Shown: positions 10,174 through 27,211 of the stretch, piece by piece
Layout: each line of letters begins with the position of its first letter
Numbering within the stretch: the stretch's first letter is position 1
Notes under the pieces: model-generated
What the model saw: the letters and a program-made list of their open reading frames with translations, nothing else
Databases searched by the model: none
What the model was told of the DNA's origin: nothing
Assembly (NCBI GenBank): GCA_041653835.1
Contig: JBAZEP010000006.1
Coordinates: 37-64,036, forward strand
Length of the DNA stretch: 64,000 nucleotides
Source: Candidatus Omnitrophota bacterium
Lineage (GTDB): Bacteria > Omnitrophota > Gorgyraeia > Gorgyraeales > Gorgyraeaceae
Reading direction: 5' to 3'
Program-made: the position numbers and the translations under genes

Positions 10174-10176
10174 GCC

Positions 10177-10494
10177 ATGAAAGATATCGTTGAAAAGATA
10201 CTAAAGGAAGAAGAAAGGGCCGGCAAGATAGTTCAGGACGCGAAGGAAGAAGCCGGCCGCATTTTAAAAGAGGCCATTAAAGAGAAAGAGAACATCATAA
10301 GCCGCTCGGTCAGCGAGGCGGATGATTTCAGCCGCAGGCAAAAAGAAGATTCCGAAAAAAGAGCTGTATCCGAAAAAGAAAAAGTCCTTGCGGAGGCAAG
10401 AAAGGAAATCGCGCTTGCCCGCGACAATAGAGAAAAGGACATTTCCGGGCTTTCCGCCAAGATATTTTCCCGGATAATAACCATCGAAAATTAA
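10177..10494 (+). CDS. V/A-type ATPase peripheral-stalk subunit G/H
   Basis: 105-aa Glu/Lys/Ala-rich coiled coil at head of V-ATPase operon. Confidence 0.5.
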   Translation: MKDIVEKILKEEERAGKIVQDAKEEAGRILKEAIKEKENIISRSVSEADDFSRRQKEDSEKRAVSEKEKVLAEARKEIALARDNREKDISGLSAKIFSRIITIEN

Positions 10495-10496
10495 AT

Positions 10497-11543
10497 ATGC
10501 GAGAGCTTGCTGCGTATTCTTTCATTAACGCCAAGATAAGGGCCATGATATCGTTCCTGCTGAGCCCGGAGTTTTTTTCCGGCATGCTGGAGGCGGAGGA
10601 TTTTTATAGCGCCCTGGAGCTGTTAAAGGAATCCTCTTCCTACAAGACCGTCATAGATGCCCTGCCAAAAGAAATAAACGACCTGAGGACAATCGAAAAA
10701 CAATTTATAAAAAACGACCTGGATATATACAGGAAGATACTCCGCTCGATCCCGGGAAAAGCGGAAAAAGCGATCATGGAGCTTTTTATAGAAAATTACG
10801 AGATCGAGCAGTTGAAAGCGGTGTTGAGGATATGGAATAAAAAGGCGCCGGTAAGCGCGGAAGAATTCCTTCCTGCGGAAAAAATAAGTTTCGGCATAGA
10901 TTACAAAAAGATCATTTTCGCGCCTAATATAGAAGAGATAATCCTTATCCTGGAAGACACGCCTTACAGGAGGCCTCTTTTAAGCGCCAGGCAGAAATTC
11001 AAGGAAACAGGCTCATCGTTTTACCTGGAGGCCGCGCTGGATATGGATTATTATCAAAGGCTTCTCGCTTGCGCGGAACAGCTCTCCGCCCGCGATAAGG
11101 AGATAGCCAAAGGGATAATAGGCATAGAGATAGATACTGAGAATATAAACTGGCTCATCAGGATGAGGAAATATTACAGCCTTTCCGCGGGCGACATACT
11201 CGAAGGCGTGATACCGGGCGGCACGCGCATAAATAAAGAAAGTATAATAAGGCTTTATACCACCGACGGCCTTACGAATATGGCGGAGAGCGTTTCCCTC
11301 GGCCCGTACGCCAGGATAAAAGAGCTCATTGAGGAAAACGCGCAGCTCATAGAAAACTTCCTTCATGAGGTTTTTATGAGAGAGGTCAAAAGGGCGCTTT
11401 CGGGATACCCTTTTACCATAGGAGTGGTACTGGGATATACGGTGCTGAAAAAGAACGAGACAAAAAATATCGTGTCTATTCTATATGCCAGACATTTCGG
11501 CTGGAAAAAGGATGAGGCGAACAGCCTCCTGAATATATGTTGA
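10497..11543 (+). CDS. atpC: V-type ATPase subunit C (d)
   Basis: ~350 aa alpha-helical protein in canonical operon position between G and I. Confidence 0.6.
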   Translation: MRELAAYSFINAKIRAMISFLLSPEFFSGMLEAEDFYSALELLKESSSYKTVIDALPKEINDLRTIEKQFIKNDLDIYRKILRSIPGKAEKAIMELFIENYEIEQLKAVLRIWNKKAPVSAEEFLPAEKISFGIDYKKIIFAPNIEEIILILEDTPYRRPLLSARQKFKETGSSFYLEAALDMDYYQRLLACAEQLSARDKEIAKGIIGIEIDTENINWLIRMRKYYSLSAGDILEGVIPGGTRINKESIIRLYTTDGLTNMAESVSLGPYARIKELIEENAQLIENFLHEVFMREVKRALSGYPFTIGVVLGYTVLKKNETKNIVSILYARHFGWKKDEANSLLNIC

Positions 11544-13438
11544 GCGCGTCGAGCATGGAATTGATAAGTATAGTTGTCCTGAAAGAAAAAATAGAGGCCA
11601 TAACTCTGCGCCTGCTGAAGCTCGGGATATTCCATCCTGTTGATATACGCCGGATAGAGGATGAGCTGGGGGAGTTGTCAGTTTGCGACATAGACAAGGA
11701 ATATGACGGATGGGACGGCCTGGAGGCGGGGATAAGGGATAACCTGAGAAGGCTTGGCATTTCTCCCGCGTTGAGCCGGGACATAAAGGCGTTTTCGCGC
11801 GAGGACGTCCAGGATATCCTTGCCAGGCTGGAAAAAGAAGCAGGCCCTTTATTTTCCAGGAGAGAAGAGCTGGATTCCGAACTCCAGACGAAAAAATCTA
11901 TTTCCTCGCAATTGAAAGCGTACCCGATGTTTTCCCTGAAGAGGGAATCGGTTTACAGTTTCCTGGAAGTAACACTGGGCAAGGTGGCGGAAAAAAATAT
12001 CACGGTCCTGGAAAAAAGCCTCAAGGATATCCCGTACGTGTTTTATCCTTTCAGAAAAGAAGGGGAGAGAGTCACGGCGCTGTTCATAGGCCTCAGGCGC
12101 GACAGGGTTTTTATAGACAGGGTTTTAAAGGATATATCCTGGGAGAAGATAGCCTTCCCGGAACAGGTGGAGGGGATCTCGAAGGATGTGGAGGCCAAGC
12201 TCTCCGGGGAGATCGAGGTAATAAGAAATAAAATAGAAGAGACAACAGGGGAGATAAAAAAGACGGCCGCGGCGTACCAGGAAGAATTGTCCGGAGCGCA
12301 CTCATTCATCAGGCTCAAAAAATCTTTGCTGGAAGCTAAAAAATATTCGTGCATGACCGATAAGACAGTGCTGCTTTCGGGCTGGGTGCCCAGGGAAGAA
12401 AAAGAAAACGCCATAAAAGAGATAAAGAAAATAGACAAGGAATGTTATATCGAATCGAAAAACGCGGAAGAAGTGAATATCCCCAGGGAAGAGATACCTG
12501 TGAAACTCAGGCACGCGGCGTTCGTCAAGCCGTTCGAATTGCTGATAGACTCTTACGGCATACCAAGATACGGCACCATAGACCCTACGATATTTACCGC
12601 GATAAGTTTCCTCCTTATGTTCGGCGCCATGTTCGGGGATATAGGCCATGGCCTGGTGCTCGGCCTGGGGAGTTTTTTATTGAGGTTCAGCAAAAATGAA
12701 AAAGCAAGACAGGCGTTCGCGCTTATGCTTTACTGCGGCATCAGCTCCATCATCTTCGGGATACTTTACGGAAGTTTCTTCGGGATAGAATTCCATTCCC
12801 TATGGCTCAAGCCCATAGATAATATCATGGAGATATTCAAAGTGAGCATTATATTCGGCATAGTTTTCATGAGCCTCGGTATATTGATAAACATAATAAA
12901 CGCGCTAAGGGACAGGGATTACCTGAAGGTGATTTTTGACAAGGCAGGCCTTGTGGGCGGTATCATCTACTGGTCCGCCATAGGGCTTTTTGTAAAAATG
13001 TCCATGTCCAGGACGCAGGGCCTGAATATTTATTTTATCATAATATCCGCCGGCTTCGCCCTTTTGTTCCTGAAGCCTTTTATAGAAGCGGTTTTTAAAA
13101 AAGAAAAACATAATATTTTTACCGCTGTTATGGAGAGTACCATAGATATACTGGAAGTAGGCATGAGCTATCTGGCCAATACAGTATCCTTTATACGTAT
13201 AGCCGCGTTTGCCCTGGCCCATACGGGATTATTTATCGCCATATTCGAGCTTTCCAGGATAGTGGAGGCCTCTGGCGGGGCGTTCCTGTCTTTTTTGGTT
13301 GTTATTTTGGGAAATATACTTATAATTTTACTTGAAGGGCTTGTGGTAAGCATACAATCGCTCAGGCTGAATTACTATGAGTTTTTCTCAAAATTTTTCA
13401 TGCAAGGGAAGGAAACGTATAAACCGGTGAAATTGTAA
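11537..13438 (+). CDS. atpI: V-type ATPase subunit I (a)
   Basis: Soluble N-terminal half plus C-terminal multi-TM domain, 633 aa. Confidence 0.8.
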   Translation: MLSASSMELISIVVLKEKIEAITLRLLKLGIFHPVDIRRIEDELGELSVCDIDKEYDGWDGLEAGIRDNLRRLGISPALSRDIKAFSREDVQDILARLEKEAGPLFSRREELDSELQTKKSISSQLKAYPMFSLKRESVYSFLEVTLGKVAEKNITVLEKSLKDIPYVFYPFRKEGERVTALFIGLRRDRVFIDRVLKDISWEKIAFPEQVEGISKDVEAKLSGEIEVIRNKIEETTGEIKKTAAAYQEELSGAHSFIRLKKSLLEAKKYSCMTDKTVLLSGWVPREEKENAIKEIKKIDKECYIESKNAEEVNIPREEIPVKLRHAAFVKPFELLIDSYGIPRYGTIDPTIFTAISFLLMFGAMFGDIGHGLVLGLGSFLLRFSKNEKARQAFALMLYCGISSIIFGILYGSFFGIEFHSLWLKPIDNIMEIFKVSIIFGIVFMSLGILINIINALRDRDYLKVIFDKAGLVGGIIYWSAIGLFVKMSMSRTQGLNIYFIIISAGFALLFLKPFIEAVFKKEKHNIFTAVMESTIDILEVGMSYLANTVSFIRIAAFALAHTGLFIAIFELSRIVEASGGAFLSFLVVILGNILIILLEGLVVSIQSLRLNYYEFFSKFFMQGKETYKPVKL

Positions 13439-13442
13439 AGAG

Positions 13443-13508
13443 AGTCCCTCATCTGCCACAGAACTTTGGCGGGCTCGGGACGAATTTTGTTTCACAAAAT
13501 TCGGAGGC
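13443..13508 (+). promoter_or_regulatory. Conserved leader element AGTCCCTC...GGCGGGCTCGGGACGAATTTTGTTTCACAAAATTCGGAGGC (copy 1), hairpin + SD upstream of atpK
   Basis: 37-nt identical to 55355..55391; 8-bp stem cgaatttt/aaaattcg with 7-nt loop followed by GGAGG and ATG. Confidence 0.6.
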
Positions 13509-13512
13509 AAGT

Positions 13513-13833
13513 ATGGAGCGTATCATAAGATGGTCGTGGCGCGTAGTAAAGTTCAGCGTATTTTTTCTATTTGTGTCTTTTTGCGGTTCCGCCTGGGCGC
13601 AGACTACAACCGACCCGGCAATAGTCGGGTGGGCATTTTTAGCGGCTTCTATCGCGACCGGCCTTAGCGCTATAGCGGCAGGCATAGCGGTAGCGCATGT
13701 GGGAGCGGCCGCTGTCGGAGCGATAAGCGAGAAACCCGAGATGGCAGGCAAGGCGCTGATATATGTAGGTCTGGCTGAAGGTATAGCGATATATGGACTT
13801 ATTATAGCTATAATGATATTAGGGAAAATATAA
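13513..13833 (+). CDS. atpK: V-type ATPase proteolipid subunit K (c), two-helix hairpin type
   Basis: GLAEGIAIYGLIIAIMIL with essential Glu; N-terminal extension hydrophobic. Confidence 0.75.
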   Translation: MERIIRWSWRVVKFSVFFLFVSFCGSAWAQTTTDPAIVGWAFLAASIATGLSAIAAGIAVAHVGAAAVGAISEKPEMAGKALIYVGLAEGIAIYGLIIAIMILGKI

Positions 13834-13876
13834 AACTGGGAGCATAGAACTGGGAGTCCGACTCCCAGTAAGACAT

Positions 13877-14179
13877 ATGACTTTTTTTTGCATAGCTGAT
13901 AAAGAATCGAGCCTTGGTTTCAGGCTTGCCGGCATAGAGACAATGGAGGTTTTAAGCCGCTCGGACAGCCTGGAGGCACTGAAGATAGCGCTGGCAACCG
14001 AAGAGGCGGGGGTGCTCCTTGTCACGGAAAAGGCCGCGTCTTTTTTAAGGAACGAGCTTAATAACCTTATGTATAAGAACCAAAGGCCGTTGATACTCGA
14101 GCTTCCCTCAAGAGGCTCGTCCGCCAAGAAAAAGAGCGTGGGGGATTATTTAAAGGACGCGATAGGGGTGAGCGTGTGA
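13877..14179 (+). CDS. atpF: V-type ATPase subunit F
   Basis: 100 aa, SLGFRLAGIE motif. Confidence 0.7.
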   Translation: MTFFCIADKESSLGFRLAGIETMEVLSRSDSLEALKIALATEEAGVLLVTEKAASFLRNELNNLMYKNQRPLILELPSRGSSAKKKSVGDYLKDAIGVSV

Positions 14180-14796
14180 CGGATAAAACACTTTATTCAA
14201 AGGTAAAAATGGAAGATGCCCAGGAGATATGCAAAAGGATAATAGACGACGCGTCATCCCAGGCTGATACGATGCTCTCGAACGCCAATAAAGAAAAATC
14301 CAGGATGATCGAAGAGGCGAATCTGGAAGCGGACGCCAAAAGAAAAGACATCCTGAAGAATAGCGAGCTGGGAACAGAAAAGACGAGGCAGAAAATCTTC
14401 TCCACGCTGAATCTTGAGAAGAAAAAGCTTTTTCTTGAAGAAAAAGGCAGGTTTATAGAAGCGGTATTCGAAAAGGTCAGGCTCGCGGCGGAAGAGTTCA
14501 GGGAAAATCCCGGCTATAAGGCATTTTTGGAAAAGGCCATAAAAGAAGGTATCGATGTCATAGGCGGGGGCGAGGCAGAGGTGTTATATTCTACGATGGA
14601 TGAAAGAATAATAAAAGACGATATCATGAAAAATATAAAAGACAGCGCGATCCAGTTTAAAAAAAGCGATTTTAAGGATATAGGGGTCATTGTGCGCTCA
14701 AAGGATTCCAGGCTTATCTACGATAACACGTTTTCCGCCAGGTTCAAAAGGATGCGCGATGAAATATATATGGAGCTATTGAAGGGAGTGTCGTAA
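14176..14796 (+). CDS. atpE: V-type ATPase subunit E
   Basis: ~200 aa charged coiled-coil N-term, operon position. Confidence 0.65.
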   Translation: MTDKTLYSKVKMEDAQEICKRIIDDASSQADTMLSNANKEKSRMIEEANLEADAKRKDILKNSELGTEKTRQKIFSTLNLEKKKLFLEEKGRFIEAVFEKVRLAAEEFRENPGYKAFLEKAIKEGIDVIGGGEAEVLYSTMDERIIKDDIMKNIKDSAIQFKKSDFKDIGVIVRSKDSRLIYDNTFSARFKRMRDEIYMELLKGVS

Positions 14797-16560
14797 ATGC
14801 TAAAGGCCGCGGGTAAGGTTTACAGGGTCATGGGGCCTGTTGTCGAGGCGGAAGAGGTGTCTTTTTTAAGGATGCTGGATATGGTGGAAGTGGGCCATGA
14901 GCATCTGGTAGGGGAGGTCGTGCGGTTGAAAGAAGACAAGGCATATATCCAGGTCTATGAGGACACCACATCCCTCAAGGCCGGGGATATTGTTTATACG
15001 CAGGGATTCCCGCTGTATGTGGAATTAGGGCCAGGTCTCTTAGGGAATATTTTTGACGGGATACAGCGGCCCCTCGAGGTATTAAAAGAAAAAGAAGGAT
15101 TTTATATATCGAGAGGCGTCCATGTGCCTGCCCTGGACAGGAAAAAGAAATGGGATCTCAGACTTTTAAAAAAACAGGGCGATCATGTAAAGCAAGGGGA
15201 GGCCATAGGAGAGGTCCAGGAGACATTCCTGATAAAACACAGGATCCTTGTGCCTCCGGGTATACAGGGCACGGTAAAGTGGATTGTGCCAGAAGGCGGC
15301 TATTCCCTTGATGAGAAAATAGCGGTGGTAAGCGACAAAGATTCCGAAAAAGAGATCTTTATGTATCAGAAATGGCCTGTGAGGCGGCCAAGGCCTTATG
15401 GCGAAAGGACCCCGATAAGCGAACCTCTTATCACAGGACAGAGGGTCATAGATACCTTGTTCCCTGTCGGCAAGGGCGGGTGCGTTGTGGTGCCCGGGGG
15501 ATTCGGGACAGGAAAGACCGTTGTACAGCACCAGATCGCCAAGTGGAGCAACGCTGATATCGTGATATATGTGGGATGCGGGGAAAGAGGGAACGAGATG
15601 ACGGATATCCTGCTTAATTTTCCGAAACTCATAGATCCCGCTACTAAAAGGCCTATCATGGAAAGGACGATATTTATCGCGAATACATCCAATATGCCTG
15701 TTGCCGCCAGAGAGGCCAGTATTTATACCGGTATTACGCTCGCGGAGTATTATCGCGATATGGGTTATAACGTGGCGCTTATGGCTGACTCGACATCAAG
15801 ATGGGCGGAGGCACTTAGGGAGCTTTCCGGAAGGCTTGAGGAGATGCCTTTGGAAGAAGGATTTCCGGCTTACCTGCCGTCAAGGCTCGCGGAGTTTTAC
15901 GAAAGGGCGGGCCGCGTCAGGACGCTCAATAACGATAACGGCTCTATTACTATCATCGCCTCTGTTTCCCCGCCGGGCGGAGATTTTTCCGAGCCTGTCA
16001 CATCCCACACGAAAAGATTTATACGCTGTTTCTGGGCGCTTGACAGGGATCTCGCGAACGCCAGGCATTACCCGTCCATAAGCTGGATAGACAGCTATTC
16101 CGAATACCTGGATGACGTAAAAGACTGGTGGCATAAAAATGTGGACAAAGACTGGCTTTCCGCCAGGTACGCTATAATGGAACTCCTGCAGAAAGAACAG
16201 AGGCTGCTCCAGGTCGTGAAACTTGTGGGACCGGACGTACTGCCGCACCGCCAAAGGCTTATACTCGAGACGTGCAGCATGTTCAAAAATACGTTCTTGC
16301 AGCAGAGCGCTTTCGATGACATAGACACGTATTCATCGAGCCGCAAGCAGTTTTTAATGTTGAAATCCATAATAAAATTTTACGAAAAAAGCGATGAACT
16401 GATCAAAAAAGGCGTAAACATAGAAGAGATAAGGGGCAGCTCGGCGTACCAGGAGCTCATAAGAATGAGGCATAAATATTCTGAATCAAAAGAGGATATG
16501 GCTAAACTGGCGGAGCTTCCGTCGGAAGTCGAACACTCTCTCGGAGAATTGGAGTTCTAA
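14797..16560 (+). CDS. atpA: V-type ATPase catalytic subunit A
   Basis: Walker A PGGFGTGKT, non-homologous region, 587 aa. Confidence 0.9.
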   Translation: MLKAAGKVYRVMGPVVEAEEVSFLRMLDMVEVGHEHLVGEVVRLKEDKAYIQVYEDTTSLKAGDIVYTQGFPLYVELGPGLLGNIFDGIQRPLEVLKEKEGFYISRGVHVPALDRKKKWDLRLLKKQGDHVKQGEAIGEVQETFLIKHRILVPPGIQGTVKWIVPEGGYSLDEKIAVVSDKDSEKEIFMYQKWPVRRPRPYGERTPISEPLITGQRVIDTLFPVGKGGCVVVPGGFGTGKTVVQHQIAKWSNADIVIYVGCGERGNEMTDILLNFPKLIDPATKRPIMERTIFIANTSNMPVAAREASIYTGITLAEYYRDMGYNVALMADSTSRWAEALRELSGRLEEMPLEEGFPAYLPSRLAEFYERAGRVRTLNNDNGSITIIASVSPPGGDFSEPVTSHTKRFIRCFWALDRDLANARHYPSISWIDSYSEYLDDVKDWWHKNVDKDWLSARYAIMELLQKEQRLLQVVKLVGPDVLPHRQRLILETCSMFKNTFLQQSAFDDIDTYSSSRKQFLMLKSIIKFYEKSDELIKKGVNIEEIRGSSAYQELIRMRHKYSESKEDMAKLAELPSEVEHSLGELEF

Positions 16561-17946
16561 ATGGGAAAAGAATATAATTTAAGGGAATATAGCGGCCTGA
16601 CAGAGATCACAGGGCCTATCTTCGTCATACGCAATATCCATAATGTCGGATATAACGAGATAGTGGAGATAGTCGATGACGAGGGAAAATCAAGGCTCGG
16701 AGTCACGCTCGAAGTCGGAAAGGGTTTCGCGGTGGTGGAGGTGCTGGGCGGCACAAGCGGCCTCGCGATAAAGAATTGCAGGGTGAATTTCAAGGAAAAA
16801 CCGCTTATGATGGGCGTATCCGAAGAGATTCTCGGAAGGGTTTTCGACGGACTTGGTAATCCCCTTGACGGCATGCCAAGGCCTGTCCACGACGAGATGT
16901 TCAATGTGAACGGGCTCGCCATAAACCCGGTGTCCAGGGATTATCCGGAAAATATAATAGAGACAGGTATATCCTCGATAGACGTGATGAACACGCTTGT
17001 AAGGGGCCAGAAGCTCCCGATATTTTCTGGAAGCGGACTGCCCCATGACCTTATAGGCACACAGATCGCGCGCCAGGCGCAGGTAAAAGGCGAGAGTTTC
17101 TGCGTAATCTTCGTAGCCATGGGCGTCAAATATGACACAGCGAGATTCTTCCAGAAAAGTTTTGAGGAGTCAGGGGTCCTGGAGAGGGTAGCCATGTTCC
17201 TGAGCCTGGCTGACAGCCCTTCGATAGAAAGGCTTCTTACGCCGCGGCTCGCGCTCAGCTGCGCGGAATATCTGGCGTTCCGGAAAAATATGCACGTCCT
17301 GGTCATAATGACGGACATGTCTAATTATTGCGAGGCGCTAAGGGAAGTCTCCACAATAAGAGGCGAGATACCTGCCAGGAAAGGTTATCCCGGGTATCTT
17401 TACAGCGACCTGGCAAGCATATATGAAAGGGCGGGCATGGTAAAAGGGGTAAAAGGCTCTATAACCCAGCTTCCTATCCTGACAATGCCCAATGACGACA
17501 TTACCCATCCGATCCCGGATTTAACAGGCTATATCACTGAAGGCCAGATAGTACTTGAGAGGGAAATGTATAACAGGGGCATATATCCTCCCATAGCCGG
17601 GCTTCCTTCTCTATCAAGGCTCATGAAAGATAATATAGGTAAAGGCCTTACACGGGACGACCATCCGTCGCTCGCTTCGCAGTTATTCGCGTGTTACGCC
17701 CACGTGAAGGATGTTCGGGCGCTCGCGTCGATTATAGGAGAGGAAGAACTTTCAGCGCTCGATAAACTTTACCTGAAGTTCGGGGAAGACTTCGAGAAAA
17801 AATTCCTCAGTCAGGGGTATATGGAAAGAAGGACATTAGAAGAAGGGCTGGACCTGGGGTGGGACGTGATATCGGTGGTCCCGGCCGAGGAACTCGTCAG
17901 GATACGCGAAGAAGACCTTAAAAAACATTATAAAAAGAAAACATGA
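16561..17946 (+). CDS. atpB: V-type ATPase subunit B
   Basis: 461 aa, degenerate P-loop region, strong A/B family similarity. Confidence 0.9.
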
Positions 17947-18560: not shown

Positions 18561-19033
18561 AGCAGATAATTGTCTCGCTCGCAGGAGGACCAACCTCAAT
18601 AATTACGGCGAAATACGCGATATATCTCGCGAAACTCCTCCAGGTGAAATTGACCGCCATCTATGTTATAGACGAGAACACGTTGCAGGAATTATTGAAA
18701 AGCAGGATATTCGTGGAGATCGAGGCTAGGGAATACGAGATAGACATGGAGCAGCAGTCCAGGCTTTTTATGCAGAGGGTAAGGGCGCTCGCGGAAAATA
18801 AAAAAGTGGAATTCGATTCAGTGATTTTAAAAGGAGAAGTTCATACCGAGATAGCCGCCAAGGCGAAAGAATTGGGCGCGGATCTTTTGGTAATGGGAGA
18901 CCTGAAAGAGGTTTTATCGTGGAAAGAAGCGTTTTACAGCGAAGGCGAAAGGATATTCAGGGAATCGCCATGCCCCGTGGTTGTAGTGAAAAATCCCCAG
19001 GAAGCGGAGAGGCTGTATAAAGAGCTGCAGTAA
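18557..19033 (+). CDS. Universal stress protein family (UspA)
   Basis: 158 aa Rossmann-like; LLVMG and C-terminal VVVVK. Confidence 0.7.
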   Translation: MKQIIVSLAGGPTSIITAKYAIYLAKLLQVKLTAIYVIDENTLQELLKSRIFVEIEAREYEIDMEQQSRLFMQRVRALAENKKVEFDSVILKGEVHTEIAAKAKELGADLLVMGDLKEVLSWKEAFYSEGERIFRESPCPVVVVKNPQEAERLYKELQ

Positions 19034-19051
19034 ATATAGAGGCGGTGAGAT

Positions 19052-19654
19052 ATGTCAGAAAATTTAAAGGGCCTTCTTGAAAAAATAAACCAGGAAGGCA
19101 TAAAATCAGCCGAGGGAAAGGCCAGGGCGATAGAGGACAAGGCCAGGATAGAGGCGGCGAAAATTATCGAAGACGCCAAAAAACTGGCGGACGACATTAC
19201 ACGGAAAGCCGTTCTTGAAGCGGAGAGGGTCAAAAAAGGCGCGGAGGCAGGGCTCAAGCAGGCGTCAAGAGACCTTTTGCTTGGCTTGAAAGAAGACATA
19301 AGAGAGATGCTTAATAAAATTGTATCTGGCGAGATAAATAAGGCGTTATCGAGCGAGGAGATAGCGGTTATATTGGCGGAGCTGATAGATAAATACGCGG
19401 AGAAGAACGGCAAAGAAGGCGACATAAAAGTCCTGGTCAGTAAGGATGCCCTGGAAAAAATAAAAAGCGCTTTTATATCCAGGCTGAAAGATAAGATCTA
19501 TTCAGGAGTGGAGTTCAGGCCTTCCGAGAATATAAACGCGGGGTTTTCCATAAGTTTCGATAAAGGGAAGTCGTTCTTCGATTTCAGCGATGAGGCGCTT
19601 GTGGAGACGCTGTGTGTTTACCTTAACCCCGAAATCGCCAAATTGCTCAAATGA
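19052..19654 (+). CDS. atpE: V-type ATPase subunit E (second operon)
   Basis: Coiled-coil AIEDKARIEAAKIIEDAKK N-term, 200 aa. Confidence 0.65.
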   Translation: MSENLKGLLEKINQEGIKSAEGKARAIEDKARIEAAKIIEDAKKLADDITRKAVLEAERVKKGAEAGLKQASRDLLLGLKEDIREMLNKIVSGEINKALSSEEIAVILAELIDKYAEKNGKEGDIKVLVSKDALEKIKSAFISRLKDKIYSGVEFRPSENINAGFSISFDKGKSFFDFSDEALVETLCVYLNPEIAKLLK

Positions 19655-20151
19655 AAAATAATTATTATTACCTGATCGCGGGACTCCCGATGCTGCAATT
19701 CGGTATGAAGCCCCCGCTTTCGCACAAAGATTTTCTGGAAGAATGCCGGAGACAGCTTAGCGCGGGTGATATGGCCAACCTGGAAAAAAACACAGTGGGC
19801 TTATCGAAAGAGTGGAATATTTTCGATATAAGCCTCAGAAATGAACTGGTAAGGCTGCGCTCGGCAAAGAAGGGCAAAAATCCGGACAATTATTTACGCG
19901 GCACAAAAGAAACAAACCCTTTTACCGAGCCTATGGCGCACTGGGCAGTAAACCAGGATTCTCCCATGGACGCGGAAAAATACCTTGATAAAATAAGATG
20001 GGAAAAAATAGAGGATATTAAACGAGGGCATTATTTTGATACAGACTATCTTGCCGCGTACGGGATCCAACTCAGGATACTGGAACGATGGGACAGGATC
20101 GATTCGGGCGGCGGCATGAAAATTCTGGAAGAATTGACAGGGAAAATATGA
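19651..20151 (+). CDS. Conserved hypothetical of spirochaete/chlamydia-type V-ATPase operons (position of CT309/BB0095-like gene)
   Basis: 166 aa ORF in the E-x-A-B-D-I-K arrangement. Confidence 0.4.
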   Translation: MKNNYYYLIAGLPMLQFGMKPPLSHKDFLEECRRQLSAGDMANLEKNTVGLSKEWNIFDISLRNELVRLRSAKKGKNPDNYLRGTKETNPFTEPMAHWAVNQDSPMDAEKYLDKIRWEKIEDIKRGHYFDTDYLAAYGIQLRILERWDRIDSGGGMKILEELTGKI

Positions 20152-21881
20152 GCGCGGGAAGAACAGGCATACTGACAGGCATAAACGGGAACATGGCGAC
20201 GGTCGAGTTCAAGGACTATGTCATGCAAAACGAGGTCGCTTTTATAATCCACAACGAGGAACGGCTTAAATCCGAAGTCATACGCGTGAGAGGTAATATC
20301 GCGGAGGTCCAGATATACGAAGATACCAAGGGACTTACCCTGGGGGAAAAGGTGGAGTTTACGGGAGAACTTCTTTCAGTGGAACTCGGGCCCGGCCTCT
20401 TGGGCCAGATATTCGACGGATTGCAGAATCCGCTGCCCCAGCTGGCCGAAAAAACCGGGTTTTTCCTGAAAAGAGGCATGTACCTGGAGGCGCTGGACAA
20501 TAAAAAAGAATGGGAATTTACGCCCATCGCGAAGGCCGGGCAAAAATTAAAGGCCGGCGAAAAATTGGGATCTACGCAGGAGGGTATTTTCGAACATTGG
20601 ATAATGGCGCCTTTTATTTTAAAAGGCTCCGCTGTGGTGGAGAAGATAGCCGCAAAAGGCAGGTATAATATAAAATATCCTGTGGCGCAATTGAAGGACG
20701 AGCGCGGCAATATTTATACTGTTACCATGTCACGGACATGGCCGGTAAAAGTGCCTATAACGGGTTTCGCGGAAAAATTAAAGCCTTCGAAGCCTCTCGT
20801 AACAAAGATAAGGATCATAGATACATTAATGCCTGTGGCGCTGGGCGGGACTTATTGCGTGCCGGGGCCTTTCGGGTCAGGCAAGACAGTGTTGCAGCAA
20901 CTGATCAGTAAGCACGCCGAGATAGATATAGTGATCATAGCGGCGTGCGGGGAAAGAGCGGGCGAGGTCGTGGAGACATTGAGGGAATTCCCGCATCTTG
21001 TCGATCCCAGGACAAAGAAAAGCCTCATAGAGCGCACAGTAATTATCTGCAATACCAGTTCAATGCCAGTGAGCGCCAGGGAGTCAAGCGTTTACACGGC
21101 TGTTACGATCGCGGAATATTACCGGCAGATGGGGTTGAATGTGCTTTTGCTCGCGGATTCCACTTCGAGATGGGCGCAGGCGATGCGTGAGATGTCAGGG
21201 AGGCTGGAAGAGATACCAGGGGAAGAGGCATTCCCCGCGTATCTCGAGAACAGGATAGCCTCTTTCTATGAAAGGGCAGGCCTAGTGAGATTGCATGACG
21301 GGAGTTTAGGGTCTGTGACAATAGGCGGCACAGTCAGCCCTGCCGGAGGGAATTTCGAGGAGCCTGTTACGCAGGCTACGCTCAAGGTTGTGGGCGCGTT
21401 CCATGGGCTTTCGCGCGAGAGGTCGGACGCGAGGAGATATCCCGCTATAGACCCGCTCGAAAGCTGGAGTAAATATACCAGTTTCATAGACATTAAGGAA
21501 GTCAAGAGCGCCCAGTCTGTTTTAAAAAAGAGTTACGAGGTAAAACAGATGATGAAGGTAGTGGGAGAAGAAGGTACTCCCCTCGCGGATTTTATAGCTT
21601 TTCTGAAAGGCGAATTCATAGACGACGTGTATCTCCAGCAGAACGCCTTTGACGAAGTTGACGCCTCTACCATAGAAGACAGGCAGAAGCATGTATTCCA
21701 TGCCTTGCATGAAATAACAGAGTCGAGGTTTACTTTTGACAATAAAGACAGCGCCAGGAAATTTTTCCAGGACCTCAGGCAGGCGTTTATTGAATGGAAT
21801 TCATCCGAATGGCAGTCGGATATTTTTTCCAAAAAAGGAAAAGAGATAAAAGAAACATGCAAAAAATATATAACCGCATAA
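20149..21881 (+). CDS. atpA: V-type ATPase catalytic subunit A (second copy)
   Basis: Walker [10 protein letters not shown]; start at ATG 20149 (MSAGRTGIL). Confidence 0.9.
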
Positions 21882-23164
21882 TCCAGATAGCGGGTAATGT
21901 CATCACTGTAGAGGCAAGAGACGTGGGTTACGGCCATCTCGCCGAGATATCTTCCAGGGCCGGTAAGTCGCTCGCCCAGGTAATAAGGATAAGCGGGGAA
22001 AAAGTGTATCTCCAGGTATTTGCCGGGAGCCGCGGCATTTCAACAGAAGACAAGATAAGGTTTTTAGGTCACCCCATGAGGGTGTCGTTCACGGAAAATC
22101 TTTTGGGGCGTTTATTCAACGGGGCGGGCCTTCCCAGGGATAACGGCCCAGCGCTCGAGGAGAATATGATAGAGATAGGCGGGCCGTCCGTAAACCCCGC
22201 TAAAAGGATCATACCAAGAAAAATGATCCGGACCGGCATCCCTATGATAGACGTGTTCAACTCTCTCGTGGAATCCCAGAAACTTCCTATATTCTCGGTG
22301 CCGGGCGAACCTTATAACGAACTCCTGGCGCGCATAGCCATGCAGGCGGAAGTAGATATAATAATCCTTGGCGGCATGGGGCTGAAATACGACGACTATC
22401 TTTTCTTCAGGGACACCCTGGAGAAGAATGGGTCTCTGCCCAGGGCGATATTTTTCGTGCATACCGCCCAGGACCCGACAGTAGAGTGCCTGCTTGTGCC
22501 TGATCTGAGCCTGGCGTGCGCCGAGCAATTCGCGCTGGAAGGAAAGCGCGTGCTTGTGCTTTTGACTGACATGACTAATTTCTGCGATGCCTTGAAAGAG
22601 ATATCTATTACCATGGAACAGATACCTTCCAACAGGGGATATCCCGGGGATCTATACAGCCAGCTCGCGAGCCGCTATGAAAAAGCAGTTGATTTCGATA
22701 CAGCAGGCTCTATAACCATACTCGCGGTAACCACAATGCCAGGGGATGACGTGACCCATCCTGTGCCGGATAATACAGGGTATATAACAGAAGGACAATT
22801 CTACCTGAGGAATAGCTCCATCGAGCCGTTCGGGTCATTGAGCCGCTTGAAACAACTTGTGAACGGAAAGACCAGAAAAGACCACCGCGCCATAATGGAC
22901 AGGATGATACAACTTTTCAGCGATTACAGGGAAACCCTCGAGAAGCAGGCAATGGGTTTTCATATGAGCGGATGGGACAAAAAACTCCTTAAATACGGCC
23001 GTTCGTTCGAGGATAACATGATGAATCTCTCGGTGGATATTCCCCTCGAAAAGGCGCTTGATATGGGCTGGAAGATCCTGTCTGAAAATTTCGAGCCAGG
23101 CGAAATAGGCATGAAAACGGAACTCGTAAGCGAATTCTGGCCAAAAAAGAATGGCGAAAATTAA
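21857..23164 (+). CDS. atpB: V-type ATPase subunit B (second copy)
   Basis: Start ATG 21857 ([15 protein letters not shown]); A/B family. Confidence 0.9.
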
Positions 23165-23768
23165 ATTTACAAAAGGCGAACTTAAGAGACAGCGCGACGC
23201 CCTGAAAAGGTTTGAGCGTTATCTGCCTATACTCCAGCTCAAGAAACAGCAGATGCAATTAGAGATGCAGCGTTCGCACGAAAGGCTTGCCCTGAAGAAC
23301 CAGGAATTGGACGCGCTTGAAGGCGAGATAAACGAGTGGGCCGATCTCCTGGAAGAGAAGCCGGATTATGTAGACAGCAATATAACGCCAAAAAATATTG
23401 TTGTTTCCAGCTTTAATATCGCGGGCGTGGATATACCTGTATTTGAGGGCATAGAATTTGCGGATGTTGATTATGATCTATTCGCGGCGCCTTTATGGGT
23501 TGATAACGCGATAATAGAAGTAAGAAAATTTGTGGCGTTATTGGAAGAAAAAAAGATATTGAGCGAACAGTTGAGGATCCTGGGTGAAGAGCTCAGGATA
23601 ACTAACCAGCGCGTAAACCTTTTTGAAAAAGTAAAGATCCCGGAGTCGAGCGATAACATAAGACGGATAAGGATATATCTGGGCGACCAGCAGGCAGGGG
23701 CTGTGGGCAGGTCCAAAATGGCGAAAAAAAAGATTGAAAAAATGAGCTTAGAGGCGGTCCCGGCATGA
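23151..23768 (+). CDS. atpD: V-type ATPase subunit D (second copy)
   Basis: [35 protein letters not shown]. Confidence 0.8.
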
Positions 23769-25507
23769 TAGTTAAGATGAAAAAAATAATCTTGATTACG
23801 CAGTCAAAAGATATGGAGTCTGCGCTCGAGTCTGTGAGGAAGCTCGGGCTTTTGCACGTGGAGCACGAGAACGCGCCATCCGGGGGTAATATTGCGGCGC
23901 TCAAAGAAAGATTGAGCCGAATTTCAAAAGCCATAGCGGTTTTGCCGGATATAAAAAACCAGGGCGCAGCGGACAGAGATAAGGCAGATTCTCTAGCAGA
24001 CGAGATATCCGCTCTCCTGGATGAAAAAGAAACTCTGGCAGAAGAACTGCAGATACTGAAGAGCGGCATAGAAGAATGGAAGGAGTGGGGTGATTTCGAC
24101 CCGGATATTATCGAGGATATGGAAGATAAAAATGTCTGGGTTAAATTGTGCAAGATCAATGTCAGGGAACTCGGGAAAATTCCAGAAGGCGTTGCAATGG
24201 AAGAGATGTTCAGGAAGGGGAATATCGTTTATTGCGCTGTTATTTCAAAGAAAGAAGTGGAATTGCCTTTTGAGACGCTCAACCTGCCTGGGATGAGCGT
24301 GGGAGAGATGGTTTTTAAAGAGAAAAAAATCGAGGAAAGGTTCGGTTTGATAGAAAAAAGACTTTCAGAGATAGCGGGCCATAAAAACAGCCTGCGCGAT
24401 CATGAAAATTATTTAAAATCGGTCATCGAATTTAACGAAGTGCGCGAAGGTTCGGGCAGGTTCGAAAAATTGTCGTATATAAAAGGGTATTCTCCCGCTG
24501 ATAAAATCAATGTCATTGAAACCGCCGCCTCGATGGAAAAATGGGGGATTGTTATCGCCGATCCTCTGGAGAATGACGTGCCGCCTACGCTGATAAAGAA
24601 TCCTAAATGGGTGGAAATAATAAAGCCGATGTTCAATATCATAAAAACCATACCCGGATATAAAGAGGTCGATATAAGCCTGCATTTCCTGGTATTTTTC
24701 TCTATTTTCTTCGGGATGCTCATAGGCGACGCGGGTTACGGCATGATATACTTTCTCCTGGCCCTTATTGCGCAAAAAAAGGCAAAGGCGGTAAAAGATA
24801 AATCAATATTTTTCCTGATATATGTGCTCAGCTCCTGCGCTATCGCGTGGGGGCTTATGACAGGGATATTCTTCGGGCCTCACCCATGGATGAGGCCGAT
24901 GGTACCCTATTTCGCCGACAATACCAATGTCCAGGCGTTCTGTTTCCTGATAGGCGCTGTCCAGCTCAGCCTGGCGCATGCCTGGAAAATTTTAAGGAGA
25001 TTCCCTTCGCTGAAAATATTGAGCGATGCCGGATGGATATGTGTTTTATGGTCGGTATATTTCCTGGCAAAGACATTGATACTGGGTTTTGAATACCCGG
25101 GTTTTGGAAAATGGCTGTTTATAGCAGGGTCATGCCTTATTATTTTATTCACAAGCCCGGCGAAGAATATATTAGCGGGCATTGGTTCCGGCTTAGGGGA
25201 TTATCTGCTGAAAGTAGTGAATAGCTTCGCGGATACGGTATCTTATATAAGGCTTTTCGCCGTAGGACTGGCAGGCGTGGCAATAGCGAACGCGTTTAAC
25301 CAGATAGCCTCCGGGATCGGCTGTGGAAGTGTTTCGAGCTGTCTATTAAGCGGATTTGTGCTTTTTGCCGGGCATTCATTGAATTTAGCGATGGGAATAT
25401 TATCGATACTTGTCCATGGGGTCAGGCTGAATGTCCTGGAGTTTTCAGGCCATCTGGATATGGAATGGTCAGGCACGGAATACAGCCCTTTTAAGGTGAA
25501 GCAATAA
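23765..25507 (+). CDS. atpI: V-type ATPase subunit I (second copy)
   Basis: 580 aa, N-terminal soluble + C-terminal TM domain. Confidence 0.75.
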   Translation: MIVKMKKIILITQSKDMESALESVRKLGLLHVEHENAPSGGNIAALKERLSRISKAIAVLPDIKNQGAADRDKADSLADEISALLDEKETLAEELQILKSGIEEWKEWGDFDPDIIEDMEDKNVWVKLCKINVRELGKIPEGVAMEEMFRKGNIVYCAVISKKEVELPFETLNLPGMSVGEMVFKEKKIEERFGLIEKRLSEIAGHKNSLRDHENYLKSVIEFNEVREGSGRFEKLSYIKGYSPADKINVIETAASMEKWGIVIADPLENDVPPTLIKNPKWVEIIKPMFNIIKTIPGYKEVDISLHFLVFFSIFFGMLIGDAGYGMIYFLLALIAQKKAKAVKDKSIFFLIYVLSSCAIAWGLMTGIFFGPHPWMRPMVPYFADNTNVQAFCFLIGAVQLSLAHAWKILRRFPSLKILSDAGWICVLWSVYFLAKTLILGFEYPGFGKWLFIAGSCLIILFTSPAKNILAGIGSGLGDYLLKVVNSFADTVSYIRLFAVGLAGVAIANAFNQIASGIGCGSVSSCLLSGFVLFAGHSLNLAMGILSILVHGVRLNVLEFSGHLDMEWSGTEYSPFKVKQ

Positions 25508-25523
25508 AACGAGAGGAGAATTT

Positions 25524-25988
25524 ATGGACGGAAACACATTGGTTCAATTCAAAGATATCGGGATAGCGGGCGCGGCGCTCGCCTTTTCAGCAATAGGCTC
25601 GGCGGCAGGAACAGGAGCGGCAGGCATGGCAGCCATAGGGGCCTGGAAAAAATGTTTCGCGCAGAATAAACCCGCGCCTTTTATATTCCTGTCATTCGTG
25701 GGCGCGCCCCTTACGCAGACCATATACGGCATGATAGTGATGAACGCTCTTATAGACGCGAGTAAAACCGTGCAGAACCTCGGAATATTGAGCGCGCTGG
25801 GTATGCTTTCGGGCGCGGCAATAGGTTTTTCGGCGTGGTTCCAGGGAAAGGCCGCGGCGTCTGCTTCCGACGCGATGGGCGAGACAGGGAAAGGCTTTGG
25901 AAACTATCTCATGGTACTCGGTATAATCGAGACAGTCGCTATATTCACGATGGTATTTACGCTGATGGCAATAGGTAAAGTACAGTAA
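25524..25988 (+). CDS. atpK: V-type ATPase proteolipid subunit K, four-helix (16-kDa) type
   Basis: 154 aa, four hydrophobic helices, GIIETVAIF carboxylate, PLTQTIYG motif. Confidence 0.75.
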   Translation: MDGNTLVQFKDIGIAGAALAFSAIGSAAGTGAAGMAAIGAWKKCFAQNKPAPFIFLSFVGAPLTQTIYGMIVMNALIDASKTVQNLGILSALGMLSGAAIGFSAWFQGKAAASASDAMGETGKGFGNYLMVLGIIETVAIFTMVFTLMAIGKVQ

Positions 25989-26053
25989 GCAGATACAAAA
26001 GAAGTACTTGCAAAATGCAGGCTCGTATAGTATATTAAGAGGCGCTTTAAAAA

Positions 26054-26128
26054 GGGCGATTAGCTCAGTTGGCAGAGCGCTTCGTTTACACCGAAGAGGT
26101 TTCACAGGTTCGAGCCCTGTATCGCCCA
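26054..26128 (+). tRNA. tRNA-Val (anticodon TAC)
   Basis: Acceptor gggcgat/atcgccc, D-arm gctc/gagc, anticodon stem cttcg/cgaag, loop tttacac; my fold gives an unusually long 7-nt variable region. Confidence 0.75.
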
Positions 26129-26130
26129 CC

Positions 26131-27209: not shown

Positions 27210-27211
27210 CT

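What the first reader, a model, noticed from the sequence alone, without database searches (positions are those of the whole stretch)
10177..25988. Two complete V/A-type ATPase operons in tandem with different gene orders
Operon 1 is G-C-I-K-F-E-A-B-D (Thermus/Enterococcus-like) with a short two-helix proteolipid. Operon 2 is E-hyp-A-B-D-I-K, the arrangement known from Borrelia/Treponema/Chlamydia, with a 154-aa four-helix proteolipid. They are separated only by a uspA gene and follow pyrE without a gap. This suggests two functionally distinct rotary ATPases, possibly differing in coupling ion or direction, and possibly different evolutionary origins.
Basis: partly seen in the sequence, partly recalled or inferred. 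Interest (0 to 1): 0.55.

Follow-up and report, generated by a model that had tools for sequence, protein, structure and literature searches.

The report
Two different rotary ATPase operons in tandem
An uncultured Omnitrophota bacterium carries two complete but anciently diverged V/A-type rotary ATPase operons back to back, one with a proton-type rotor and one with a full sodium-binding rotor; both types are already known, and the pairing arose when one operon was inserted next to the other.

Summary
Window 10177-25988 (a Candidatus Omnitrophota MAG contig) holds 17 co-oriented, tightly packed genes.

- **Operon 1:** G/H-C-I-K-F-E-A-B-D plus a translationally coupled Usp gene.
- **Operon 2:** E-DUF2764-A-B-D-I-K, the 'atpEXABDIK' layout of Bacteroidota, Chlamydiia and Spirochaetes.
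- **Not recent duplicates:** A/A 44%, B/B 38%, D/D 26% and I/I 23% identity. They match different NCBIfam equivalogs and fall in separate clades of an A-subunit tree.
- **Rotor sites differ:** K2 (154 aa, four helices, one carboxylate) has every Na+ ligand of Enterococcus hirae NtpK (T64, Q65, Q110, E139), conserved in all 42 orthologs checked. K1 (two helices, signal-like N-terminus) keeps only the carboxylate (V for Q110, G for T140), so it is proton-type.
- **How the tandem arose:** across Omnitrophota, operon 2 normally follows the pyr genes directly (35 of 64 loci). Operon 1 plus Usp (~8.9 kb) sits between pyrE and E2 only in one close clade (7 loci plus the window). A close relative inside that clade (L086) lacks it, with a clean junction.
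- **A second, independent pairing:** four other loci carry a different, Thermus-order operon downstream of K2.

Pumping direction is unresolved. Both operon types, and two V-type ATPases in one genome, are already known, so this is a new member of a known kind.

The parts
9607..10173 (+). pyrE (orotate phosphoribosyltransferase), last gene of the pyr cluster; left flank of the inserted cassette
   Evidence: Pfam Pribosyltran. 188-aa orthologs in L081/L082. GTG start at 9607 behind an RBS.
10174..19033 (+). Inserted cassette of about 8.9 kb: operon 1 plus Usp, between the pyrE stop and the E2 ribosome-binding site
   Evidence: L086 has pyrE, 22 nt, then E2 with no cassette. The TAAATATAGAGG junction motif is shared. 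35 of 64 operon-2 loci have pyrE/pyrF directly upstream and 7 have Usp/operon 1.
10177..10494 (+). Operon 1 peripheral-stalk subunit G/H-like (105 aa, coiled coil)
   Evidence: Weak matches only: TIGR02926 AhaH 24.7 bits (cut-off 48.5) and vATP-synt_E N-terminus. Its position as first gene is conserved in relatives.
10497..11543 (+). Operon 1 subunit C (d / AC39)
   Evidence: PF01992, 204.8 bits
11537..13438 (+). Operon 1 subunit I (a), stator with ion half-channels
   Evidence: PF01496. Aligns to E. hirae NtpI at E=1.3e-31, with the Arg of S-x-x-R-[IL] conserved (SFIRIAAF).
13513..13833 (+). Operon 1 proteolipid K1: 106 aa, one two-helix hairpin, signal-like N-terminus (..SAWA|Q), GLAEGIAIYGL motif, no Na+ ligands
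   Evidence: PF00137. Alignment to 2bl2 NtpK: Q110 becomes V, E139 is kept, T140 becomes G.
13877..14179 (+). Operon 1 subunit F
   Evidence: PF01990, 59.9 bits
14176..14796 (+). Operon 1 subunit E
   Evidence: PF01991, 54.2 bits
14797..16560 (+). Operon 1 catalytic subunit A1 (587 aa)
   Evidence: Four A-subunit Pfam domains. NF003220, 880 bits. Walker A GGFGTGKT.
16561..17946 (+). Operon 1 subunit B1
   Evidence: NF003235, 708 bits. It scores below the cut-off of the operon-2-type model NF002555.
17943..18560 (+). Operon 1 central-stalk subunit D1
   Evidence: PF01813, 155.8 bits
18557..19033 (+). Universal stress protein family gene, the tenth gene of operon 1 (4-nt overlap with D1)
   Evidence: PF00582, 61.6 bits. 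Adjacent after D in 26 of 70 related loci.
19052..19654 (+). Operon 2 subunit E2
   Evidence: NF002424 135.9 bits (below its cut-off of 241). PF01991 22.5 bits.
19651..20151 (+). Operon 2 'X' gene: short DUF2764 protein (166 aa), all-helical; candidate replacement for subunit C/d
   Evidence: PF10962, 59 bits, covering only model positions 202-266 of 271. 190 short homologs. AF2 pLDDT 83.6. The link to subunit d is not significant.
20148..21881 (+). Operon 2 catalytic subunit A2 (577 aa)
   Evidence: Pfam A-subunit domains. Walker A GPFGSGKT. 100% match to the database protein.
21857..23164 (+). Operon 2 subunit B2 (start approximate; orthologs are 431 aa)
   Evidence: NF002555 equivalog, 752.9 bits (cut-off 431)
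23151..23768 (+). Operon 2 subunit D2
   Evidence: NF002565 equivalog, 223.7 bits (cut-off 189)
23765..25507 (+). Operon 2 subunit I2 (a)
   Evidence: PF01496. E. hirae NtpI E=4e-22. Conserved Arg in SYIRLFAVG.
25524..25988 (+). Operon 2 proteolipid K2: 154 aa, four helices, single carboxylate E136, Na+ ligands T64, Q65, Q107, E136 (+T137)
   Evidence: NF005174 equivalog, 189 bits (cut-off 127). Alignments to NtpK. Ligands conserved in all 42 orthologs that cover the positions.

Best explanation
The region encodes two separate, complete V/A-type rotary ATPases of different lineage and different rotor chemistry.

Operon 1 (G/H-C-I-K-F-E-A-B-D-Usp) is a canonical nine-subunit enzyme. Its rotor is built from single-hairpin proteolipids. 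Each carries one carboxylate and none of the extra Na+ ligands, so it is inferred to be proton-coupled.

Operon 2 (E-DUF2764-A-B-D-I-K, the 'atpEXABDIK' type) is the enzyme that Omnitrophota usually carry next to their pyrimidine genes. Its double-hairpin proteolipid has one carboxylate per four helices and the complete Na+ coordination set of Enterococcus hirae NtpK. It is therefore inferred to be sodium-coupled.

The tandem arrangement arose by insertion of the ~8.9-kb operon 1 + Usp cassette between pyrE and E2 in one sublineage.

Only 18 nt, containing an RBS and no terminator, separate Usp from E2. The two operons are therefore probably co-transcribed here. That would give the cell both a proton-coupled and a sodium-coupled ATP-linked ion motor.

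What is shown: gene content, divergence, ligand patterns and the insertion history. What is inferred: ion specificity, co-transcription and physiological roles. Which enzyme makes ATP and which pumps is not determined. My weak preference (about 50-55%) is that the high-ratio single-hairpin H+ enzyme is the synthase and the Na+ enzyme is the pump.
For: - **Subunits:** assigned by Pfam and NCBIfam.
- **Intact machinery:** Walker A and GER(G/A)xE motifs are present in both A subunits. The stator Arg is present in both I subunits.
- **Deep divergence:** 44/38/26/23% identity.
- **Separate families:** B2, D2 and K2 pass different NCBIfam equivalogs from B1, D1 and K1.
- **Tree:** in the NJ tree, A2 groups with Chlamydiia, Bacteroidota, Desulfobacterales and Acidobacteria sequences. 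A1 groups with the canonical bacterial/archaeal clade.
- **K2 ligands:** T64, Q65, Q107 and E136/T137 align to NtpK T64, Q65, Q110 and E139/T140. They are conserved in all 42 orthologs that cover the positions. The ligand list comes from PMC2359735.
- **K1 site:** V at the Q110 position and E-G instead of E-T. The motif GLAEGIAIYGL is conserved across about 60 loci.
- **Known layout:** the atpEXABDIK layout with DUF2764 and Na+ residues is described for Bacteroides fragilis and Margulisbacteria.
- **Insertion history:**
- **Purifying selection:** protein identity to close relatives is 86-95%, against about 80% nucleotide identity.
Against: - Ion specificity is predicted from ligands only. From my own knowledge, not checked here: Na+-like motifs do not always mean exclusive Na+ use, and Thermus has a Q...ET pattern yet is studied as an H+ enzyme.
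- The K2 profile matches NtpK only marginally (E=0.009).
- Bootstrap support for the A2 clade is moderate (52-59%) in a simple NJ analysis.
- No transcript data exist. The promoter/terminator scans were uninformative.
- Operon 2 lacks recognisable F and G subunits. The role of DUF2764 as the subunit d equivalent is not shown.
Confidence: 0.8

Rival explanations
1. Same coupling ion, different regulation. Both enzymes move the same ion (probably H+, or both are promiscuous). They would be condition-specific isoforms, for example a stress-linked one accompanied by Usp. The rotor-site differences would not translate into different specificity.
For: A Usp gene is tied to operon 1 in many phyla. 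A tandem-Usp gene lies next to the second operon in L131. Motif-based ion calls have known exceptions (own knowledge).
Against: K1 lacks three of the four side-chain ligands, whereas K2 keeps all of them in every ortholog that covers the positions. Such strict conservation of Q65, Q107 and E136-T137 is hard to explain without ion coordination. The 18-nt Usp-E2 gap argues against independent regulation in this genome.
Confidence: 0.15
2. Subunit sharing or a hybrid complex. Operon 2 lacks F and G (and a canonical C). In this lineage it would borrow them from the adjacent operon 1, so the tandem encodes interdependent rather than independent machines.
For: Operon 2 has only seven genes. Tandem placement next to a nine-subunit operon arose at least twice.
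Against: The same seven-gene operon stands alone in most Omnitrophota loci (35 of 64 directly after pyr genes; L084, L085, L086). It also stands alone in Bacteroides and Margulisbacteria. D1 and D2 are only 26% identical and I1 and I2 only 23%, so the interfaces are unlikely to be interchangeable.
Confidence: 0.05
3. One operon is a decaying or non-functional remnant of a transfer event.
For: L086 lacks operon 1, so the cassette is dispensable in at least one close relative.
Against: All 17 ORFs are intact and of ortholog length. Catalytic motifs are preserved. Proteins are 86-95% identical to relatives, against about 80% at the nucleotide level.
Confidence: 0.03
4. Assembly or binning chimera that joined two unrelated contigs.
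For: The source is a metagenome-assembled genome.
Against: The identical pyrE-operon 1-Usp-operon 2 order occurs on seven independent contigs from different samples. G+C content is uniform (46-49%) across the region.
Confidence: 0.01

Closest known systems
atpEXABDIK V-type ATPase operon of Bacteroides fragilis, Chlamydiales, Spirochaetes and Margulisbacteria
   Same: It has the same seven-gene order with DUF2764 as the second gene. It has a four-helix K subunit with the NtpK Na+ residues. F, G and C genes are absent. A2's nearest named relatives outside Omnitrophota are Chlamydiia and Bacteroidota.
   Different: The Omnitrophota DUF2764 protein is short (145-190 aa) and matches only the last ~65 positions of the 271-position Pfam model. 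In Omnitrophota the operon is habitually attached to the pyr cluster. Here it is preceded by a second ATPase operon.
Enterococcus hirae Na+-translocating V-ATPase (NtpK ring, PDB 2BL2)
   Same: K2 is a double hairpin with one carboxylate and the ligands T64, Q65, Q110 and E139. Both I subunits find NtpI as their best solved relative.
   Different: Sequence similarity between K2 and NtpK is marginal (profile E=0.009). The E. hirae operon encodes the full canonical subunit set in a different order (own knowledge). Na+ dependence is untested here.
Thermus thermophilus V/A-ATPase (H+-coupled ATP synthase)
   Same: Operon 1 has the same nine subunit types. Its single-hairpin proteolipid has an N-terminal extension, and Thermus K is deposited in both 99-aa and 74-aa forms.
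   Different: The gene order differs (Thermus: G-I-L-E-C-F-A-B-D, own knowledge). Operon 1 adds Usp. The carboxylate motif is E-G here.
Tepidanaerobacter acetatoxydans, which has two V-type ATP synthase operons
   Same: It is a bacterium with two V-type operons. Its first operon has exactly operon 1's order: b(G),C,I,K,F,E,A,B,D (PMC4374699).
   Different: Both Tepidanaerobacter operons are of canonical nine-subunit type and lie far apart (loci 557-565 and 2235-2244). Neither is atpEXABDIK.
Treponema species with two V-type ATPase operons (recalled from the T. pallidum genome paper; not verified here)
   Same: A canonical-type and a Chlamydia/Borrelia-type V-ATPase would coexist in one genome. 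Loci from Treponematales and other Spirochaetes with the operon-1 type plus Usp were retrieved here (L013-L021).
   Different: As far as I recall the two operons are not adjacent. I could not check this with the tools.

Membership tests
Canonical prokaryotic V/A-type ATPase, nine subunits (operon 1) | Catalytic A subunit with a P-loop and the A-specific barrel-sandwich insert, plus a non-catalytic B subunit | tested here: met
   A1 matches four Pfam domains including PF16886, and NF003220 at 880 bits. Walker A is GGFGTGKT. B1 matches NF003235 at 708 bits.
Canonical prokaryotic V/A-type ATPase, nine subunits (operon 1) | Central stalk subunits D, F and C(d) | tested here: met
   PF01813 155.8 bits, PF01990 59.9 bits, PF01992 204.8 bits
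Canonical prokaryotic V/A-type ATPase, nine subunits (operon 1) | Peripheral stalk made of E plus G/H | tested here: inconclusive
   E is clear (PF01991, 54.2 bits). The 105-aa first gene matches AhaH/G-type models only below their cut-offs (24.7 vs 48.5 bits). Its position and size are nevertheless conserved.
Canonical prokaryotic V/A-type ATPase, nine subunits (operon 1) | Membrane subunit I(a) with the essential arginine, and a proteolipid with a membrane carboxylate | tested here: met
   I1 SFIRIAAF aligns to NtpI SYTRLMAL. The K1 Glu in GLAEGIAIYGL aligns to NtpK E139.
atpEXABDIK (Bacteroidota/Chlamydiia/Spirochaete-type) V-ATPase (operon 2) | Gene order E-X-A-B-D-I-K, with a DUF2764 protein as X and no F, G or AC39 genes | tested here: met
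   The order is seen. DUF2764 scores 59 bits (cut-off 24.1) but covers only the C-terminal part of the model. No other ORFs lie within 19052-25988. Literature description.
atpEXABDIK (Bacteroidota/Chlamydiia/Spirochaete-type) V-ATPase (operon 2) | Subunits belong to the clade-specific sequence families | tested here: met
   B2 NF002555 752.9 bits (cut-off 431), D2 NF002565 223.7 (189), K2 NF005174 189 (127). E2 and I2 have their best hits to the matching models but below the cut-offs. The assignment of these models to this clade is from my memory.
atpEXABDIK (Bacteroidota/Chlamydiia/Spirochaete-type) V-ATPase (operon 2) | The catalytic subunit clusters phylogenetically with Chlamydiia and Bacteroidota sequences | tested here: met
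   The NJ tree places A2 with Chlamydiia, Phaeodactylibacter, Sunxiuqinia and Ancylomarina. Bootstrap support is 52-59%, which is moderate.
Na+-translocating V-type ATPase (E. hirae NtpK-type ion site) | K subunit with the ligands Thr64, Gln65, Gln110 and Glu139 (Leu61 contributes its backbone) | tested here: met
   K2 has T64, Q65, Q107 and E136 (+T137). They are conserved in all 42 orthologs that cover the positions, with T or S at position 64. K1 fails this test: V at the Q110 position and G at T140.
Na+-translocating V-type ATPase (E. hirae NtpK-type ion site) | Na+-dependent ATPase activity or Na+ transport | not testable with these tools
   This needs biochemistry. The organism is uncultured.
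V-ATPase subunit d/C (AC39) as the identity of the DUF2764 protein | Detectable sequence or fold homology to AC39 | tested here: inconclusive

The most novel reading that the evidence does not exclude
Placing a proton-type V/A-ATPase operon next to the sodium-type atpEXABDIK operon may be selected rather than accidental. It arose at least twice in Omnitrophota with different partner operons, and a Usp gene lies between the operons both times. On this reading the two enzymes are co-expressed and work as a coupled pair. One would synthesise ATP on one ion gradient while the other spends ATP to build the other gradient. Together they would act as an ATP-mediated H+/Na+ gradient converter under Usp control, in cells that also carry an Mbh/Mrp-like hydrogenase.
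Probability: 0.12. Interest if true: 0.7.

Novelty: new member of a known kind. Interest (0 to 1): 0.4.

Why it matters
Rotary ATPases set the energy budget of anaerobes living near the thermodynamic limit. Omnitrophota are abundant and uncultured, and their V-type ATPases have barely been described. The main phylum survey mentions a V-type ATPase once.

This work shows three things:
- The phylum's usual enzyme is the uncharacterised atpEXABDIK type, with a strictly conserved Na+ site.
- One lineage added a proton-type enzyme directly upstream of it.
- A close relative differs by presence or absence of the whole cassette. That gives a natural comparison for asking what a second coupling ion buys a cell.

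It also flags two cheap targets for study: the short DUF2764 protein and the operon-linked Usp. The building blocks themselves are known, so the value is incremental rather than conceptual.

Tried and rejected
2. **I subunit as an ion-specificity marker.** Both I1 and I2 find E. hirae NtpI as their best solved relative, so this does not discriminate.
3. **Single-sequence phmmer of K2 against the PDB.** It missed NtpK. A 15-sequence profile was needed, and it gave only E=0.009.
4. **Promoter/terminator scan of 9000-27000.** There was no convincing terminator or promoter at the Usp-E2 junction. The counts were only modestly above the shuffled controls.
5. **Cassette boundary repeat.** I tested whether the 45-bp palindrome at the pyrF-pyrE junction marks a cassette boundary. 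It does not recur at the Usp-E2 junction. Its second copy lies before purB at 44026, and it is absent from all 165 related loci.
6. **Rfam scan.** Only three tRNAs were found.
7. **Compositional signature.** The inserted cassette has the same G+C content as its flanks.
8. **Literature.** I searched for earlier descriptions of tandem V-type operons or of Omnitrophota V-ATPases. Nothing specific turned up.
9. **Usp nucleotide binding.** The G-2x-G-9x-G(S/T) motif is not evident by eye. No formal test was done.

Full report
**Source and gene content**

The exact protein sequences of the window are on record as a 64.6-kb contig of a Candidatus Omnitrophota MAG.

From 10177 to 25988 there are 17 + strand ORFs with gaps of 0-74 nt and several 4-nt ATGA-type overlaps.

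Pfam and NCBIfam assign the first nine to V/A-ATPase subunits G/H-like, C(AC39), I, K, F, E, A, B and D. The tenth is a universal stress protein. The last seven are E, DUF2764, A, B, D, I and K.

The true A2 start is the ATG at 20148, not 20088. The 577-aa product is a 100% database match. B2 probably starts near 21857. pyrE ends 3 nt before the first ATPase gene.

**Are they recent duplicates?**

No.
- A1/A2 are 44% identical, B1/B2 38%, D1/D2 26% (barely detectable) and I1/I2 23%.
- B2, D2 and K2 pass the curated cut-offs of NCBIfam equivalogs NF002555, NF002565 and NF005174. B1, D1 and K1 have their best hits to different models, and B1 fails NF002555.
- Both A types have more than 100 homologs at 70% identity or higher. 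Nearly all that carry a name are Omnitrophota.
- A search of 50%-identity representatives, followed by name look-up, shows A2's nearest relatives outside the phylum (43-52% identity). They are Chlamydiia, Bacteroidota (Phaeodactylibacter, Sunxiuqinia, Ancylomarina), Desulfobacterales and Acidobacteria MAGs.
- B1's relatives are Spirochaetota, Neomarinimicrobiota, KSB1, Chloroflexota, Thermotogae, Clostridia and Crenarchaeota.
- A B-rooted neighbour-joining tree with 100 bootstraps puts A2 in the Chlamydiia/Bacteroidota clade (support 52-59%). It puts A1 in the canonical clade.

This divergent Chlamydia/Borrelia/Treponema/Bacteroides group is a long-recognised entity (PMC2359735). Its seven-gene layout is published as atpEXABDIK (PMC6349859). 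It has also been described in Bacteroides fragilis, with DUF2764 as the second gene (bioRxiv 10.1101/2023.05.11.540287).

Operon 1's order G-C-I-K-F-E-A-B-D is not the Thermus/Enterococcus order. It matches operon 1 of Tepidanaerobacter acetatoxydans (PMC4374699) and more than 50 loci retrieved here.

**Ion-binding sites**

The Na+ ligands of E. hirae NtpK are Glu139, Gln110, Thr64, Gln65 and the Leu61 backbone (PMC2359735).

K2:
- It aligns to NtpK with T64, Q65, Q107 (=Q110) and E136-T137 (=E139-T140). This holds in a MAFFT alignment and in a profile search, where NtpK is the only PDB hit (E=0.009).
- The ligands are conserved in all 42 K2 orthologs that cover the positions, with T or S at position 64.
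- The first hairpin has no carboxylate, so there is one site per four helices.

K1:
- It is a single hairpin preceded by a signal-like N-terminus ending in AWA|Q. This resembles Thermus K, which is deposited in 99-aa and 74-aa forms.
- Against NtpK it has V at the Q110 position and G at T140, and it keeps only the Glu.
- The motif GLAEGIAIYGL is nearly invariant in about 60 orthologs from many phyla.

I conclude that K2 can coordinate Na+ and K1 cannot. This is a prediction from ligands, not a measurement.

**Functional integrity**

Both A subunits keep the Walker A and GER(G/A)xE motifs. Both I subunits keep the stator arginine and a second conserved Arg, as shown in alignments to NtpI and Thermus I. 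All ORFs have the lengths of their orthologs. Proteins are 86-95% identical to close relatives, against about 80% at the nucleotide level, which indicates purifying selection.

**How the tandem arose**

- None of 80 operon-1-type loci from species-representative genomes has operon 2 within 10 kb.
- Of 64 operon-2 loci with 700 nt or more upstream of E2, 35 have pyrF or pyrE immediately upstream. Only 7 have Usp/operon 1 there (L081-L083, L087, L089-L091). All 7 belong to the window's close clade, with A2 at 86-88% identity.
- L086 is 89% identical in A2+B2 nucleotides to the insertion-bearing L082 and is nested among insertion-bearing contigs. It has pyrE, then 22 nt, then E2, with no operon 1.
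- The junctions are clean. L086 reads 'TAG attat TAAATATAGAGGtgagtc ATG'. The window reads Usp-'TAA ATATAGAGGcggtgagat ATG'.
- In other Omnitrophota, operon 1 is not next to pyr genes.

The ancestral layout is therefore pyr cluster followed by operon 2. Window ~10174-19033 is an 8.9-kb cassette inserted in one sublineage and either lost again or never fixed in L086. Its G+C content matches the flanks. Its closest relatives are other Omnitrophota operon-1 copies, which suggests an origin within the phylum.

Four further loci (L131, L132, L135, L137) carry a different second operon about 2 kb downstream of K2. There, a tandem-Usp gene is followed by G-I-K-E-(C,F...), the Thermus/Enterococcus order. 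Pairing of V/A operons has therefore happened at least twice in the phylum.

**Usp**

Usp overlaps the D1 stop by 4 nt. It follows D on the same strand in 26 of 70 evaluable operon-1-type loci. These come from Omnitrophota, Spirochaetota, Neomarinimicrobiota, KSB1 and two Bathyarchaeia. It is absent from the Chloroflexota, Clostridia and Thermotogae versions. It is best read as the tenth gene of this operon subtype, possibly regulatory. The classical ATP-binding motif is not obvious.

**The DUF2764 protein**

The Omnitrophota version is consistently short (145-190 aa; 190 homologs) and matches only the last ~65 positions of the 271-position Pfam model.

AlphaFold2 with a 33-sequence alignment gives a confident all-helical model (pLDDT 83.6, pTM 0.79).

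The idea that it replaces subunit d/C has only hints in its favour. The top Foldseek PDB hit is Thermus subunit d, but at E=0.68. hhalign aligns its C-terminal G-H-Y-F-D-I-D..Y motif to the G-x-P-F-T-I-G..Y motif of subunit C at E~0.17. This is not significant, so the question stays open.

**Mechanism and role**

Shown: two complete gene sets, different lineages, different rotor sites, and an insertion history.

Inferred:
- Operon 1 is H+-coupled and operon 2 is Na+-coupled.
- They are probably co-transcribed here, because only 18 nt with an RBS separate Usp from E2. L082 keeps a 93-nt AT-rich spacer at the same place.

Direction is open. One site per hairpin in K1 gives a higher ion/ATP ratio, which favours synthesis. 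One site per double hairpin in K2 resembles the pump of E. hirae, whose ring has 10 K subunits. From my own knowledge, however, double-hairpin single-site rings can also synthesise ATP, as in Pyrococcus.

The window also encodes Mbh/Mrp-like group-4 hydrogenase subunits and ApbE. The phylum commonly has Rnf (PMC10066038). Both H+ and Na+ gradients are therefore plausible in this cell.

**Comparison and novelty**

Each operon is a member of a known family. Two V-type ATPases in one genome are documented for Tepidanaerobacter and, from memory, for Treponema.

I did not find the following described elsewhere:
- the direct tandem in Omnitrophota;
- its origin by cassette insertion, with a presence/absence polymorphism among close relatives;
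- the second, independent pairing;
- the Usp linkage;
- the short DUF2764 form.

I rate this a new member of a known kind, with moderate interest (0.4).

Noticed in passing
window 18-2937 (+): Genes for an Mrp/NuoL-like antiporter subunit, a fused NuoC-NuoD-like (30 kDa + 49 kDa) subunit and a NuoB-like (20 kDa) subunit. This looks like the end of a group-4 membrane-bound, energy-converting [NiFe] hydrogenase or Mbh/Mrp-type complex. It lies 7 kb upstream of the ATPases and is relevant to H+/Na+ energetics.
   Followed up: partly
window 9544-9588 and 44026-44070: A 45-bp near-perfect palindrome (CCCTAATGTCACATTTAAGAC-3 nt-inverted copy) occurs twice. One copy lies in the pyrF-pyrE spacer and one just upstream of purB, so both precede nucleotide-biosynthesis genes. 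None is expected by chance, and it is absent from all 165 related loci. It could be a genome-specific REP-like element, a terminator or an operator.
   Followed up: partly
window 26054-38300: Directly after K2 come tRNA-Val, a GIY-YIG gene and tRNA-Asp. These are followed by a low-G+C stretch (35-38% against 47%) with an AIPR abortive-infection gene, a DUF488 gene, a tyrosine integrase and several ORFs without Pfam matches. This is probably an integrated mobile or defence island. In relatives L083 and L090 the YajQ-like gene, deoxyhypusine synthase and arginase lie only about 3 kb after K2; in L083 the stretch between holds an ScmC/PqqD/radical-SAM cluster.
   Followed up: partly
L131 15948-21044; also L132, L135, L137: Another Omnitrophota lineage has, downstream of its atpEXABDIK operon, a 299-aa tandem-Usp gene on the opposite strand. 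After it comes a second V/A operon in Thermus/Enterococcus order (G-I-K-E-...). That operon's 103-aa K subunit carries a GIAQSK...IPETM pattern.
   Followed up: partly
window 18557-19033; L001-L030, L046, L078: A Usp-family gene immediately follows subunit D in 26 of 70 canonical-type loci. These come from Omnitrophota, Spirochaetota, Neomarinimicrobiota, KSB1 and two Bathyarchaeia. Such a conserved operon-linked Usp has not, to my knowledge, been discussed as a V/A-ATPase accessory.
   Followed up: yes
window 5901-7133; L084 260-2734: A 410-aa gene sits inside the pyr cluster between pyrC and pyrK. It got no Pfam hit at E<=1e-5 here, but its orthologs are precomputed as MJ0043_C. It is conserved in that position in relatives. 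In L084 the ortholog is 824 aa and carries intein/LAGLIDADG hits.
   Followed up: no
window 19651-20151 and homologs P0267-P0385: All 190 detected homologs of the DUF2764 protein are short (about 128-192 aa). One of them (P0372, 41% identity) is labelled Methanoregula sp. PtaU1.Bin051 on a 253-kb contig. That may reflect mis-binning or transfer.
   Followed up: no
window 42162-43163 (+): An ApbE flavin transferase gene is present (307 bits). This enzyme family flavinylates Rnf/Nqr-type Na+ or H+ pumps, which is consistent with an Rnf or Nqr complex elsewhere in the genome.
   Followed up: no
L028 (Thermotogae MAG) about 5836-6980: This operon-1-type locus has three consecutive K-like genes. 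Two of them have the carboxylate replaced (GLANGVATYGL), which suggests a heteromeric ring with fewer ion sites.
   Followed up: no
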